DNA of 64,000 bases, from positions 42,661 to 106,660 of the forward strand of contig CAVZZX010000004.1 in the NCBI GenBank assembly GCA_963779865.1. The letters are read 5' to 3'. A model generated the notes under the pieces. That model did not search any database. It saw nothing but the letters and a program-made list of their open reading frames with translations, and had not been told where the DNA came from. Shown here piece by piece: positions 7,078-9,960 of the stretch; within the stretch, counting starts at the first letter, position 1; every line of letters starts with the position of its first letter. A program made the translations under genes and the position numbers. Source of the stretch: an uncultured Gammaproteobacteria bacterium. GTDB taxonomy: Bacteria > Pseudomonadota > Gammaproteobacteria > CAVZZX01.

Positions 7078-8271
7078 TCAGCCCGCCAGGGCGTCCAGGC
7101 CATGCGCCAGATCGGCCTGGATGTCGGCGAGGTCCTCCAGCCCCACCGCGAGACGCAACAGCCCCTCGGTGATCCCCGCCTCGGCCTTCGCCGGCGCGCT
7201 CAGACGCCCGTGCGTCGTGCTCGCCGGGTGGGTGATGGTGGACTTGGCATCCCCGAGATTGGCCGTGATCGACAACATGCGCGTGGCATCGATCACGCGC
7301 CAGGCGCCTTCGCGGCCGCCCTCCACCTCGACCCCGACCACGCCGCCGAAGCCGCCGCTCTGCTGACGGGCCGCCAGGGCATGCTGCGGATGGCTCTCCA
7401 GCCCCGGATAGTGCACGCGGCGCACCGCCGGGTGCGCCTCCAGCCAGCGCGCCAGGGCCAGTGCGTTTTCGCTGTGCGCCCGCATGCGCAGGCGCAGCGT
7501 TTCCAGCCCCTTGGCGAACACCCACGCGTTGAACGGGCTCATGCTGGGCCCGGCGGTGCGCAGCACGCCGAACACCTCCTTGCCCACGCGCTCCGCGTCG
7601 CCCACGACCGCCCCGCCGACGCAGCGCCCTTGGCCGTCGAGGTACTTGGTGGCCGAGTGGATGACGAGGTCCGCCCCCAGGCTGAGCGGACGCTGCAAGG
7701 CCGGGGTGCAGAAACAATTGTCCACCACCAGCAGACTGTCGTTCGCGTGGGCGAGCTCGGCAAGCGCGCCGATGTCGGCCACCTCGGTCAGCGGGTTGGA
7801 CGGCGTCTCCAGGAACAGCAAGCGCGTCTCGCGGCGCAGCGCGCCCTGCCAGGCGGCCAGGTCACTGAGATCGACGAAGCTGATCTCCACACCGAACTTC
7901 GTCATGTAATTGCTGAACAGGGCCGTAGTCGTGCCGAACACCGCCCGCGAGCAGACCACGTGGTCGCCGGCCTTGAGCAGCGCGAGGCAGGTGCTGAGGA
8001 TGGCGGCCATCCCGGAGGCGGTGGCCACGCAGGCCGCGCCGCCCTCGAGCGCCGCCAGCCGGGCCTGGAAAGTGGCGACCGTTGGGTTGGTGAAACGCGA
8101 ATAGATGTTGCCCGGCTCATCGCCGCCGAAGCGGGCGGCCGCCTGGGCGGCGCTGTCGAAGACATAACTGGAGGTGGTGAAGATCGGCTCCGAATGCTCG
8201 TGCTCACTGGTGCGTACCTGCCCGGCGCGCACCGCCAGCGTGTCGAAACCCAAGTCCTGCTCAGAGTTCAT
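7078..8271 (-). CDS. metZ: O-succinylhomoserine sulfhydrylase
   Basis: YSRFTNPT, SGMAAI, ETPSNP, VDNCFCTP, HSATKYLDGQG (PLP lysine); downstream of purF as in Pseudomonas. Start MNSEQ at 8271. Confidence 0.93.
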   Translation of the reverse strand: MNSEQDLGFDTLAVRAGQVRTSEHEHSEPIFTTSSYVFDSAAQAAARFGGDEPGNIYSRFTNPTVATFQARLAALEGGAACVATASGMAAILSTCLALLKAGDHVVCSRAVFGTTTALFSNYMTKFGVEISFVDLSDLAAWQGALRRETRLLFLETPSNPLTEVADIGALAELAHANDSLLVVDNCFCTPALQRPLSLGADLVIHSATKYLDGQGRCVGGAVVGDAERVGKEVFGVLRTAGPSMSPFNAWVFAKGLETLRLRMRAHSENALALARWLEAHPAVRRVHYPGLESHPQHALAARQQSGGFGGVVGVEVEGGREGAWRVIDATRMLSITANLGDAKSTITHPASTTHGRLSAPAKAEAGITEGLLRLAVGLEDLADIQADLAHGLDALAG

Positions 8272-8311
8272 CGAAGTGCCCTGCCCTGTTGCCGTGAGAT
8301 CCCGCGGGCAC

Positions 8312-8342
8312 AAAAAAAACCCGCCGAGCCAAAGCGGGTTTT
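8312..8342 (-). terminator. Intrinsic terminator in the metZ leader (riboswitch expression platform)
   Basis: AAAACCCGC-TTTGGCTCG-GCGGGTTTTTTTT: a GC stem followed by a U8 tract. Confidence 0.88.
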
Positions 8343-8345
8343 CAC

Positions 8346-8400
8346 CCTCGCTTTAGCTGCATTTATCAAGCGCCCGCAAGCTGAGCTCAAATCGGCGCTG
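8346..8400 (-). ncRNA. SAM-II (SAM_alpha-type) riboswitch aptamer
   Basis: AGCGCCGATTTGAGCTCAGCTTGCGGGCGCTTGATAAATGCAGCTAAAGCGAGG: P1 is AGCGCC/GGCGCT, the pseudoknot pairs TTGCG/TGCAG, and the conserved GATTT, TGATAAA and GCTAAA are present. It lies upstream of a Met biosynthesis gene. Confidence 0.9.
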
Positions 8401-8406
8401 TCACTC

Positions 8407-8436
8407 ATCCTAAGAGCCGCCCGGCGAAGCCGTCAA
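8407..8436 (-). promoter_or_regulatory. Putative sigma70 promoter of the riboswitch-metZ transcript
   Basis: TTGACG-18 nt-TAGGAT; the predicted start falls at the 5' end of the aptamer. Confidence 0.65.
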
Positions 8437-8451
8437 GCCCGGCCCTGCGAC

Positions 8452-9960
8452 TCAGGCCGAGTTGTAGAGCTCGATGACCTCGTTGTCGATGTTGCGCGCG
8501 GTCTTCGCGAGGTCGTTGCGGGCGGCCTCCAGGCGGTCCAGATAGCCTGCGCTGATGTCGCCGGTGACATAGTCGCCGTCGAACACCGAGGCGTCGAAGC
8601 GCTCGATGCGCGGATTGCCCTTGCGCGCCGCCTGCTTGAGGTCCTCGAGGTCCTGGTAGACCAGCCAGTCCGCCCCGATGGCCTCGGCGATCTGCTGGTC
8701 GTCGCGGCCGTGGCCGATCAGCTCCTTGGCCGAGGGCATGTCGATGCCGTAGACATTGGGGTAGCGCACCGGCGGCGCGGCGGAGGCGAAATACACCTTG
8801 CGGGCCCCGGCGTCGCGGGCCATCTGGATGATCTGCTTCGAGGTGGTCCCGCGCACGATGGAGTCGTCGATGAGCAGCACGTTCTTGCCCTTGAACTCCA
8901 GGTCGATGGCGTTGAGCTTCTGGCGCACCGACTTCTTGCGCTGTTTCTGCCCCGGCATGATGAAGGTGCGGGCGATATAGCGGTTCTTGATGAAGCCCTC
9001 GCGGTACTTCACGCCGAGTTCGTAGGAGAGCTGCAGGGCGGCGGTGCGACTGGTGTCCGGGATCGGAATGACGACGTCGATGTCGTGCGCGGGGAAGCTC
9101 GCCTTGATGCGCTTGGCGAGCTTCTCGCCCATGCGCAGGCGCGCCTTGTACACCGCGATGCCGTCGATAATGGAGTCGGGCCGCGCCAGGTAGACGTGCT
9201 CGAAGATGCACGGCGCGAGCATCGGGTTCTCGGCGCACTGCCGGGTGAAGATGTTGCCGTCCACGTCGATGTAGACCGCCTCGCCCGGCTCCAGGTCGCG
9301 GATCAGCTCGAAGCCGAGCACGTCGATGGCCACGCTCTCCGAGGCGATCATGTACTCGGTCCCCTCCTCGGTCTCGCGCTTGCCGAACACCACCGGGCGG
9401 ATGCCGTAGGGGTCGCGGAAGCCGACGATGCCGCGGTCGTTGATCAGGGCGACGGCGGCATAGGCGCCGCGGCAGCGGCGATGCACGCCGGCCACGGCCG
9501 CGAAGATGTCGTTCTCATCGATGTTGAGCGTGCCGGCCACCTGCAGCTCATGGGCGAAGACGTTCAGCAGGACTTCGGAGTCGGAGTCGGTATTGATGTG
9601 CCGGCGGTCCTCCACGAACAGCTCGCGCTTGAGCGCCTCGGCATTGGTCAGGTTGCCGTTGTGCGCGAGCGCAATGCCGTAGGGGGAGTTGACATAGAAC
9701 GGCTGGGCCTCGGCCGAAGACTGGCAACCGGCGGTCGGATAGCGCACATGGCCGATGCCCAGATTGCCCGCCAGGCGCAGCATGTGGCGAGGCTGGAAGA
9801 CGTCCCGCACCAGGCCGTTGTCCTTGCGCAGGTACAACCGCCCGTCCTCGCAGGTGACCATCCCCGCGGCGTCCTGGCCGCGGTGCTGGAGCACCGTGAG
9901 CCCGTCATAGAGCGCCTGGTTGACCGGGCCCTTGCCCGCGATTCCGATGATCCCACACAT
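8452..9960 (-). CDS. purF: Amidophosphoribosyltransferase
   Basis: N-terminal [33 protein letters not shown]. Confidence 0.97.

What the first reader, a model, noticed from the sequence alone, without database searches (positions are those of the whole stretch)
8271..8436. SAM-II riboswitch wired to a terminator/antiterminator controlling metZ in a gammaproteobacterium
Seen, in order: a sigma70 promoter, a textbook SAM-II aptamer, a strong intrinsic terminator with a U8 tract, then metZ about 75 nt past the aptamer. The aptamer's 3' strand CUAAAGCG(A)GG can pair with the terminator's 5' arm and loop CC-CGCUUUGG, forming an antiterminator. Known: the best-characterised SAM-II switches are mostly alphaproteobacterial and act by occluding the RBS. 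Inference: here SAM binding locks GCUAAA into the pseudoknot, frees the terminator and stops transcription. This would be a transcriptional SAM-II, internal to the purF-metZ run, that also gates read-through from purF.
Basis: partly seen in the sequence, partly recalled or inferred. Interest (0 to 1): 0.78.

Follow-up and report, generated by a model that had tools for sequence, protein, structure and literature searches.

The report
SAM-II riboswitch with terminator before metZ
The stretch between purF and metZ holds a real SAM-sensing riboswitch of the SAM-II class that most likely stops transcription when SAM is plentiful, but this class, this mechanism and even this sequence subtype are already described, so it is a sound annotation and not a discovery.

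Summary
In order there are a sigma-70 promoter (8436-8407), a SAM-II-type pseudoknot aptamer (8399-8347), an 11-bp intrinsic terminator with a U8 tract (8343-8312) and the metZ start codon at 8271. The aptamer's 3' strand can also pair with the terminator's 5' arm and loop, which would form an antiterminator.

Rfam's SAM_alpha model scores the aptamer 31.8 bits, below its cut-off of 36. However, 34 of 80 gammaproteobacterial metZ loci carry the same element, and 6 of the 20 scanned with Rfam pass the cut-off. The promoter, P1, the P2 pseudoknot and one tertiary pair (22 G-C, 7 A-U, 0 unpaired) are conserved. 29 of the 34 have a terminator. Antiterminator pairing is kept in 86% of alignment cells, but without compensatory changes.

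The novelty claim fails. Corbino 2005 and Barrick and Breaker 2007 already reported that SAM-II is mostly terminator-linked and occurs in gamma- and betaproteobacteria. Scheuer 2022 studied a terminator-type SAM-II on metZ in Sinorhizobium meliloti. Leyn 2014 described the same core sequence in betaproteobacteria as the 'metXZ element'.

One feature is unreported as far as I found: a conserved box just after the U tract that is complementary to the aptamer's P1 3' strand. Its role is unknown.

The parts
8431..8436 (-). -35 box, TTGACG
   Evidence: Found by the promoter scan. TTGAC(A) is nearly invariant in 29 aligned orthologous leaders.
8407..8412 (-). -10 box, TAGGAT. The predicted transcription start is about 8399-8401, directly before P1.
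   Evidence: T, A and the final T are conserved, with 17-18 nt spacing. Corbino 2005 describes the same placement of a promoter just before P1.
8394..8399 (-). P1 5' strand, AGCGCC
   Evidence: cmscan alignment. The five GCGCC/GGCGC pairs hold in 29 of 29 leaders. The sixth pair is A-U, C-G, G-C or U-A in 15 leaders.
8378..8393 (-). Loop L1 (GAUUUGAG), then the P2 5' strand CUC(A)GCUU at 8385-8378
   Evidence: GAUUU and GCUU are invariant. 88% of P2 cells are paired. These blocks correspond to the L1 uridines and the P2b U21/G22 that contact SAM in structure 2QWY, as described in PMC3303485.
8369..8377 (-). GCG, then the P1 3' strand GGCGCU. G8375 forms a tertiary Watson-Crick pair with C8359.
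   Evidence: The pair G8375:C8359 is G-C in 22 leaders and A-U in 7, with none unpaired. Barrick and Breaker 2007 predicted this pair for SAM-II.
8347..8368 (-). L3 (UUGAUAAAUGCA), then GCU, then the P2 3' strand AAGCGAG (8353-8347). This is the switching strand.
   Evidence: GCUAAAG is invariant. The strand pairs either with 8385-8378 to form the pseudoknot or with 8339-8328 to form the antiterminator.
8328..8357 (-). Antiterminator hairpin: GCUAAAGC plus GGGU pairs with ACCC plus GCUUUGGC
   Evidence: It is the minimum-free-energy fold of the tail at -16.9 kcal/mol, z = -4.6. In the alignment 86% of cells pair, against 27-47% in slid registers, with no double changes.
8312..8343 (-). Intrinsic terminator: stem 8343-8333 with 8325-8315, loop 8332-8326, U8 tract 8319-8312
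   Evidence: -14.8 kcal/mol when the P2 strand is withheld. 27 of 29 aligned leaders have a comparable hairpin plus U tract. 91.5% of stem cells are paired.
8301..8311 (-). Conserved box after the terminator, GUGCCCGC(GGG). It is complementary to the aptamer stretch CUUGCGGGCGC (8380-8370). Role unknown.
   Evidence: Present in 16 of 27 leaders. At most 3 of about 141 other GC-preceded T6+ runs in the same DNA have it. Duplex with the aptamer: -20.9 kcal/mol, z = -4.65 in the window, mean z = -2.2. It appears in the full-leader minimum-free-energy fold.
8269..8282 (-). Shine-Dalgarno-like AGGG (8282-8279) and the metZ start codon ATG (8271-8269)
   Evidence: Read from the sequence. The ORF 7078-8271 matches O-succinylhomoserine sulfhydrylase.
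7078..8271 (-). metZ, the regulated gene
   Evidence: NCBIfam NF006003 at 694 bits, above its cut-off of 522.
8452..9960 (-). purF, the upstream gene. Its stop codon lies 15 nt before the -35 box.
   Evidence: TIGR01134 at 524 bits. purF-metZ synteny is seen in most of the 80 loci.

Best explanation
This is a SAM-II (SAM_alpha) riboswitch of the beta/gammaproteobacterial subtype, with a terminator/antiterminator expression platform that controls metZ.

**Proposed mechanism.** Transcription starts at about 8400 from the leader's own sigma-70 promoter, and probably also reads through from purF. What happens next depends on SAM:

- **Low SAM.** The 3' strand GCUAAAGCGAGGGU (8357-8344) stays free. 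It pairs with ACCCGCUUUGGC (8339-8328) as that sequence emerges from the polymerase. This ties up the terminator's 5' arm, and the polymerase reads into metZ.
- **High SAM.** The ligand locks AAGCGAG (8353-8347) onto CUC(A)GCUU (8385-8378) in the P2 pseudoknot/triplex. The 5' arm then pairs with GCGGGUUUU, and transcription ends in the U8 tract at 8319-8312. The product would be an RNA of about 85-90 nt.

**Timing.** Only about 35 nt separate the end of the aptamer from the release site, so the decision is probably kinetic.

**Shown here:** the sequence anatomy, homology to SAM-II, and conservation of the promoter, aptamer, terminator and antiterminator complementarity.

**Inferred:** SAM binding, SAM-dependent termination, and control of transcripts that start at purF.
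For: - **Match to SAM-II.** SAM_alpha is the best Rfam match (31.8 bits, E 1.7e-5). 6 of 20 orthologous leaders pass the gathering score.
- **Spread.** 34 of 80 gammaproteobacterial metZ loci carry the element.
- **Aptamer fold.** 91% of cells are paired, against 26-55% in slid registers. The tertiary pair covaries 22 G-C to 7 A-U with none unpaired.
- **Ligand-contacting blocks.** GAUUU, GCUUG and GCUAAA are invariant. They correspond to the SAM contacts described in PMC3303485.
- **Promoter.** TTGACA, 17/18 nt, TAnnnT is conserved directly before P1.
- **Terminator.** Present in 27 of 29 aligned leaders, and in 3 of the 6 further leaders the model found.
- **Antiterminator.** In folds cut off before the terminator's 3' arm, the P2 3' strand pairs with the terminator's 5' half in 21 of 27 leaders, mean z = -2.5. 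The alignment register is 86% paired.
- **Literature.** The same architecture is described in Corbino 2005, Barrick and Breaker 2007, Scheuer 2022 and Leyn 2014.
Against: - The window's own Rfam score is below the gathering score.
- The antiterminator shows no compensatory double change, because its 5' strand is fixed by the aptamer. The support is conserved complementarity, not covariation.
- In about half of the relatives, the equilibrium fold of the complete tail keeps the terminator even when the P2 strand is free. Switching there would have to be co-transcriptional.
- No RNA-seq run for this organism was found.
- Nothing about the ligand was tested.
Confidence: 0.82

Rival explanations
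1. Control is dual, transcriptional plus translational. In read-through mRNA, the post-terminator box GUGCCC (8311-8306) pairs with the aptamer's P1 3' strand when SAM is absent. When SAM holds the aptamer together, the box instead pairs with GGGCAC (8281-8276), which overlaps the Shine-Dalgarno sequence, and blocks translation.
For: In the window the box can form both duplexes: -20.9 kcal/mol with the aptamer and -15.0 kcal/mol with the Shine-Dalgarno region. Loci L005, L006 and L054 also show strong pairing between box and Shine-Dalgarno region (z = -4.6, -3.7, -2.8). Scheuer 2022 found a SAM-II that controls translation at a distance.
Against: Across 26 leaders, pairing between box and Shine-Dalgarno region is no better than with shuffled boxes (mean z = -0.66). 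The distance from terminator to start codon varies from 12 to 193 nt.
Confidence: 0.1
2. The hairpin is a constitutive terminator, for example the end of the cvpA-purF transcript. The aptamer does not control it. metZ expression is then set by leakage or by a protein regulator.
For: The terminator is strong (-15 to -20 kcal/mol, U8). In about half of the relatives the equilibrium fold keeps the terminator.
Against: The terminator lies downstream of a conserved promoter, so it would block metZ permanently. Its 5' arm is conserved as CC(U/C)GCUUU(A/G)GC, the complement of the invariant aptamer strand, where terminator stems are otherwise free to vary. The element travels with metZ even where purF is not upstream.
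Confidence: 0.05
3. The conserved sequence encodes a small RNA on the plus strand, like the Rfam family Bp2_287 (a Burkholderia sRNA candidate).
For: The plus strand 8314-8434 matches Bp2_287 at 27.6 bits, E 2e-4.
Against: The score is far below that family's gathering score of 70. On that strand the terminator-like hairpin sits at the 5' end of the model, where it cannot terminate the RNA. The conserved promoter, the covarying tertiary pair and the gene context all fit the minus strand. Read in reverse complement, the Bp2_287 consensus carries the blocks CGAUUUGAU..GCUUGCG..AAACAGCUAAAGC. That family therefore looks like a SAM-II element called on the wrong strand.
Confidence: 0.02

Closest known systems
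SAM-II riboswitch on metZ in Sinorhizobium meliloti, which yields the sRNA RZ (Scheuer et al. 2022, PMC9373788)
   Same: Same aptamer class, same regulated gene (metZ), and the same predicted logic of SAM-induced intrinsic termination that yields a riboswitch sRNA of about 100 nt. In that study RZ levels rose and metZ mRNA fell under high-SAM conditions.
   Different: The host is an alphaproteobacterium and the P1 and P2 sequences differ. The window's subtype has an invariant GCGCC/GGCGC P1 and a short P2a. It sits inside a purF-metZ gene pair and carries a conserved box after the terminator.
'metXZ' RNA element of betaproteobacteria (Leyn et al. 2014, PMC4239095, Fig. S2)
   Same: The core blocks are identical: GCGCCGAUUUG, (A/G)GCUUGCGGGCGC, AAAU.C.GCUAAAG(C/A). 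A terminator and U tract follow, and it lies upstream of metX or metZ. The versions before metZ (Thiobacillus, Nitrosospira, Methylophilales) share GCUAAAGCG(A/G)G with the window. The authors proposed a pseudoknot and a terminator/antiterminator.
   Different: It was described only in betaproteobacteria and was not equated with SAM-II. The authors reported SAM_alpha only in Rhizobiales and Rhodobacterales. Their antiterminator proposal used regions 3 and 4, not the 3' strand of the pseudoknot.
SAM-II / SAM_alpha, Rfam RF00521 (Corbino et al. 2005; Barrick and Breaker 2007)
   Same: It has the P1 hairpin, the H-type pseudoknot, the conserved GAUUU, GCUUGC and GCUAAAG blocks, a promoter directly before P1, and a frequent downstream terminator. 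Members in Coxiella (gamma), Bordetella (beta) and Bacteroides were already listed.
   Different: The window scores 31.8 bits against the cut-off of 36. The loss comes from a 2-nt shorter loop and a 4-nt shorter P2a region.
Sargasso Sea metX SAM-II, crystal structure 2QWY (as described in PMC3303485)
   Same: The ligand-contacting nucleotide blocks are the same.
   Different: That RNA buries its Shine-Dalgarno sequence in P2, so it acts on translation. Here the Shine-Dalgarno sequence is 65 nt downstream of P2 and a terminator lies in between.
SAM-I (S-box) terminator riboswitches of Firmicutes
   Same: It follows the same regulatory logic: SAM-stabilised aptamer, then terminator, with an antiterminator that shares a strand with the aptamer. 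It controls the same pathway.
   Different: The aptamer fold is unrelated: a four-way junction instead of a pseudoknot/triplex.

Membership tests
SAM-II riboswitch (Rfam RF00521, SAM_alpha) | Significant match to the curated covariance model | tested here: inconclusive
   The window scores 31.8 bits, below the gathering score of 36, with E 1.7e-5 over 411 nt. 6 of 20 orthologous leaders with the same core score 36.2-41.1 bits.
SAM-II riboswitch (Rfam RF00521, SAM_alpha) | P1 hairpin enclosing the conserved loop | tested here: met
   AGCGCC 8399-8394 pairs with GGCGCU 8374-8369. Five pairs hold in 29 of 29 leaders, and the sixth pair varies with double changes in 7.
SAM-II riboswitch (Rfam RF00521, SAM_alpha) | P2 pseudoknot between the 3' part of the P1 loop and the 3' tail | tested here: met
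   CUC(A)GCUU 8385-8378 pairs with AAGCGAG 8353-8347. 88% of cells are paired across 29 leaders. The register agrees with the compensatory mutants M1 and M2 of Corbino 2005.
SAM-II riboswitch (Rfam RF00521, SAM_alpha) | Conserved nucleotides that form the SAM pocket (L1 UUU, P2b UU-G, 3' strand U-AAA) | tested here: met
   GAUUU, GCUUG and GCUAAA are invariant in 28-29 leaders. Their roles are taken from PMC3303485. The exact numbering equivalence is inferred.
SAM-II riboswitch (Rfam RF00521, SAM_alpha) | Tertiary Watson-Crick pair between the last loop nucleotide and a position in L3 (Barrick and Breaker 2007) | tested here: met
   G8375:C8359. Across the leaders it is G-C in 22 and A-U in 7, with none unpaired.
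SAM-II riboswitch (Rfam RF00521, SAM_alpha) | Location in the 5' leader of a methionine or SAM biosynthesis gene | tested here: met
   It lies directly upstream of metZ, in the window and in 34 of 80 related loci.
SAM-II riboswitch (Rfam RF00521, SAM_alpha) | Binds SAM and discriminates against SAH | not testable with these tools
   This needs in-line probing, ITC or a similar assay.
Terminator/antiterminator expression platform | GC-rich hairpin followed by a U tract, between the aptamer and the ORF | tested here: met
   An 11-bp stem and U8 tract at -14.8 kcal/mol. Present in 27 of 29 aligned leaders. 91.5% of stem cells are paired.
Terminator/antiterminator expression platform | An alternative helix that shares one strand with the ligand-stabilised aptamer helix and the other with the terminator | tested here: met
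   8357-8344 overlaps the P2 3' strand (8353-8347). 8339-8328 overlaps the terminator's 5' arm and loop. Conserved in 21 of 27 leaders. 86% of cells are paired, with no compensatory changes.
Terminator/antiterminator expression platform | Ligand-dependent change in termination | not testable with these tools
   This needs single-round in vitro transcription or Term-seq. No RNA-seq run was found.
metXZ element (Leyn 2014) | Six conserved sequence regions followed by a terminator, upstream of metX or metZ | tested here: met
   Compared by eye with Fig. S2. Regions 1-4 (GCGCC, GAUUUG, GCUUGCG, GGCGC) and regions 5-6 (AUAAAU, GCUAAAG) are all present. The host is a gamma- not a betaproteobacterium.

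The most novel reading that the evidence does not exclude
The beta/gamma SAM-II subtype has a fourth conserved element that has not been described as far as I found. It is a box, G(U/C)G(C/U)C(C/U)GC, placed directly after the terminator's U tract (window 8311-8304). The box is complementary to the invariant aptamer stretch GCGGGCGC, which is the end of the loop plus the P1 3' strand. All three of its variable positions are pyrimidines that face G. In transcripts that escape termination, the box would displace the P1 5' strand and unfold the aptamer. The full-length mRNA would then be locked in a SAM-blind ON state. In some species the box might instead toggle onto the Shine-Dalgarno region.
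Probability: 0.3. Interest if true: 0.5.

Novelty: new member of a known kind. Interest (0 to 1): 0.27.

Why it matters
**For annotation.**

- Rfam's cut-off misses this instance and most of its relatives. Many metZ and metX leaders in gamma- and betaproteobacteria are therefore probably left unannotated.
- The 'metXZ element' of Leyn 2014 and probably the Rfam 'sRNA' Bp2_287 (read on the opposite strand) appear to be the same SAM-II subtype. They could be merged into that family.

**For biology.** The element gives metZ its own SAM-controlled promoter and stop signal inside a purine/methionine gene pair. In relatives that lack it, purF and metZ nearly abut. This is a tidy example of a riboswitch uncoupling two co-transcribed genes.

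None of this changes the current understanding of SAM-II. The post-terminator box is the only feature that might add a new mechanistic detail.

Tried and rejected
- **Rfam at gathering threshold.** The scan of the whole window gave no hit. The match appears only in an E-value scan.
- **Terminator scan.** The simple scan found nothing in 7800-9000, although folding shows a clear terminator.
- **RNA-seq.** No run holds this organism. The only hits were metagenomes with 5-6% of words, so the transcription start and termination site could not be observed.
- **Other families.** SAM-V, SAM-II long-loop and other SAM families did not appear, even at E up to 10.
- **Shine-Dalgarno sequestration.** Direct occlusion by the aptamer is rejected, because AGGG at 8282-8279 is 65 nt from P2. 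Sequestration through the box is not general (mean z = -0.66).
- **Box pairing with the terminator's 3' arm.** This covers only 5 of the 8 box positions. It fails in L020 and L059, whose terminator arms differ while the box still matches the aptamer. This was judged by eye.
- **Box-to-aptamer helix in the ensemble.** It dominates in only 6-9 of 25 leaders (Wilcoxon p = 0.08), so its partner stays uncertain.
- **Earlier notes.** Notes on this genome concern other loci and did not bear on this finding.
Full report
**What is in the sequence.** The feature lies on the minus strand.

- purF (9960-8452) and metZ (8271-7078) are identified by NCBIfam at 524 and 694 bits. cvpA lies upstream of purF.
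- The 180-nt spacer between purF and metZ holds the following, in order:
  - TTGACG (8436-8431), 18 nt, TAGGAT (8412-8407). This is the only promoter-like site in 7800-9000.
  - A hairpin, AGCGCC (8399-8394) with GGCGCU (8374-8369), enclosing GAUUUGAGCUCAGCUUGCG.
  - The tail UUGAUAAAUGCAGCUAAAGCGAGGG.
  - An 11-bp hairpin, 8343-8333 with 8325-8315, followed by eight U (8319-8312).
  - GUGCCCGCGGG, then a Shine-Dalgarno-like AGGG (8282-8279), then ATG (8271).

**Is it a SAM-II aptamer?**

- Rfam at gathering thresholds finds nothing in the window.
- In an E-value scan of the spacer, the best hit is SAM_alpha (RF00521) at 8408-8336(-), 31.8 bits against a cut-off of 36, E 1.7e-5. No other SAM family appears.
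- The score shortfall comes from a loop 2 nt shorter and a P2a region 4 nt shorter than the alphaproteobacterial consensus.
- A search with the MetZ protein fetched 80 gammaproteobacterial loci. They include Ectothiorhodospiraceae, Thioalkalivibrio, Nitrococcus, Competibacteraceae, Acidiferrobacterales, Sulfuricaulis and Thiohalomonadales, with at most 75-76% protein identity.
- 28 of the 80 have the same motif before metZ by pattern. A covariance model built from them finds 6 more, making 34 of 80. It finds only one copy in the window.
- 6 of the 20 leaders scanned pass Rfam's own cut-off.
- On the 29-sequence alignment, 91% of cells of P1, P2 and one tertiary pair form standard pairs, against 26-55% in slid registers.
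- The blocks GAUUU, GCUUG and GCUAAA are invariant. According to PMC3303485, these supply the L1 uridines, U21/G22 and U44-A46 of the SAM pocket in structure 2QWY.
- The tertiary pair between the last loop nucleotide (G8375) and C8359 covaries cleanly: 22 G-C, 7 A-U, none unpaired. Barrick and Breaker 2007 predicted this pair for SAM-II.
- I therefore file the element as a genuine SAM-II member that the curated threshold misses. Ligand binding was not tested.

**Promoter.** The 29 leaders share TTGACA, 17-18 nt, TAnnnT. The -10 box ends 7-15 nt before P1. Corbino 2005 describes the same arrangement for SAM-II.

**Expression platform.**

- With the P2 3' strand withheld, 27 of 29 leaders fold into a hairpin plus U tract of -10 to -21 kcal/mol. 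The window's is -14.8. Three of the six model-only hits also have one.
- With the strand free, the window's tail prefers a different fold at -16.9 kcal/mol: GCUAAAGC plus GGGU pairs with ACCC plus GCUUUGGC.
- I cut each transcript just before the terminator's 3' arm to mimic co-transcriptional folding. The P2 3' strand then pairs with the terminator's 5' half in 21 of 27 leaders, with mean z = -2.5 against shuffles and -4.6 for the window.
- On alignment A3 the antiterminator register is 86% paired, against 27-47% when slid. All variation is one-sided (U-A to U-G, G-U to G-C), because the 5' strand is frozen by the aptamer. No compensatory change supports it.
- The terminator stem is 91.5% paired.
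- The terminator's 5' arm is conserved as CC(U/C)GCUUU(A/G)GC, the complement of the invariant aptamer strand, across orders whose terminator loops and lengths differ freely. This is the strongest comparative argument for the antiterminator.
- The mechanism (SAM locks AAGCGAG into P2, the terminator forms, transcription stops) is thus well supported as a design. It remains unproven as behaviour.

**Relation to purF.**

- Only 15 nt separate the purF stop from the -35 box, and no hairpin lies there. Transcripts from purF should therefore enter the riboswitch.
- In loci without the element, purF often ends 5-100 nt before metZ. Loci with the element have spacers of about 190-290 nt.
- The element also occurs before metZ where purF is not upstream.

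**What is already known.**

[quoted passage not shown] The paper lists members in Coxiella, Bordetella and Bacteroides.
[quoted passage not shown] It also occurs in gammaproteobacteria.
- Scheuer 2022: the SAM-II on metZ in Sinorhizobium meliloti is predicted to terminate transcription and yields the sRNA RZ, which rises under high SAM.
[quoted passage not shown] - The Fig. S2 alignment in Leyn 2014 shows GCGCCGAUUUG, GCUUGCGGGCGC and AAAU.C.GCUAAAG, the same core as here. The metXZ element is therefore this SAM-II subtype.
- The premise that a transcriptional SAM-II, or one in a gammaproteobacterium, would be unusual does not hold.

**Side findings.**

- *Bp2_287.* The plus strand matches the Rfam family Bp2_287, a Burkholderia sRNA candidate, at 27.6 bits. 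The reverse complement of that consensus reads as a SAM-II aptamer plus terminator. The family is probably the same element called on the wrong strand.
- *Post-terminator box.* 16 of 27 leaders carry G(U/C)G(C/U)C(C/U)GC directly after the U tract. At most 3 of about 141 other terminator-like T runs in the same DNA have it.
  - It is complementary to the invariant GCGGGCGC of the aptamer: mean z = -2.2, and 11 bp at -20.9 kcal/mol in the window. It appears in the full-leader minimum-free-energy fold.
  - Pairing with the Shine-Dalgarno region is not general (z = -0.66). The box-to-aptamer helix dominates the ensemble in only 6-9 of 25 leaders.
  - Similar AUGCC(C/U) boxes follow several betaproteobacterial terminators in Leyn's figure.
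  - Its role is open.
- *Translational variants.* Four to five relatives (L044, L080, L023, L076, perhaps L046) lack the terminator. They carry AAAGAGGGUG, CCCUCUCCC and GGGAG before the start codon, which suggests a translational platform on the same aptamer subtype.

**Limits.**

- No transcriptome was available.
- The organism is inferred to be a high-GC gammaproteobacterium (about 65-75% GC) only from the closest MetZ and PurF relatives.

**Verdict.** It is a new member of a known kind, not a new mechanism.

Noticed in passing
window 8301-8311 (-); the same position in L005, L006, L009, L011, L014, L020, L031, L038, L042, L047, L054, L066 and others: A conserved box, G(U/C)G(C/U)C(C/U)GC, lies directly after the terminator's U tract. 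It is complementary to the aptamer's GCGGGCGC (loop end plus P1 3' strand). It occurs in 16 of 27 riboswitch leaders and in at most 3 of about 141 other terminator-like T runs. The papers I read do not describe it, and its role is unknown.
   Followed up: partly
window 8314-8434 (+): There is a sub-threshold match (27.6 bits) to Rfam Bp2_287, a Burkholderia 'sRNA' candidate. The reverse complement of that family's consensus carries CGAUUUGAU..GCUUGCG..AAACAGCUAAAGC plus a terminator. The family is probably a SAM-II riboswitch annotated on the wrong strand.
   Followed up: partly
Leyn 2014 Fig. S2 compared with window 8347-8399 (-): The betaproteobacterial 'metXZ' regulatory element, published as novel in 2014, has the same core sequence as this SAM-II subtype. 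I found no paper that makes the link.
   Followed up: yes
L044:2342-2480, L080:2348-2485, L023:2021-2170, L076:2338-2500: These leaders have the same aptamer subtype but no terminator. They carry AAAGAGGG(U/G)G, a CCCUC(U)CCC stretch and a GGGAG Shine-Dalgarno sequence. This suggests an anti-Shine-Dalgarno translational platform. Three of them also have a hairpin inserted in L3.
   Followed up: no
L007:2302-2359, L039:2033-2078, L049:2356-2414: These variants change the P2b 5' strand GCUU to GAUU or AAUU. L007 also changes AAAGCG to AAACAG and the terminator arm GCUUU to GCUGU. They are possible co-variants or decaying copies.
   Followed up: no
L018, L030, L036, L052 and other loci without the element: purF ends only 5-25 nt before metZ, so the two genes are probably co-transcribed there. 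Loci with the riboswitch have spacers of 190-290 nt.
   Followed up: partly
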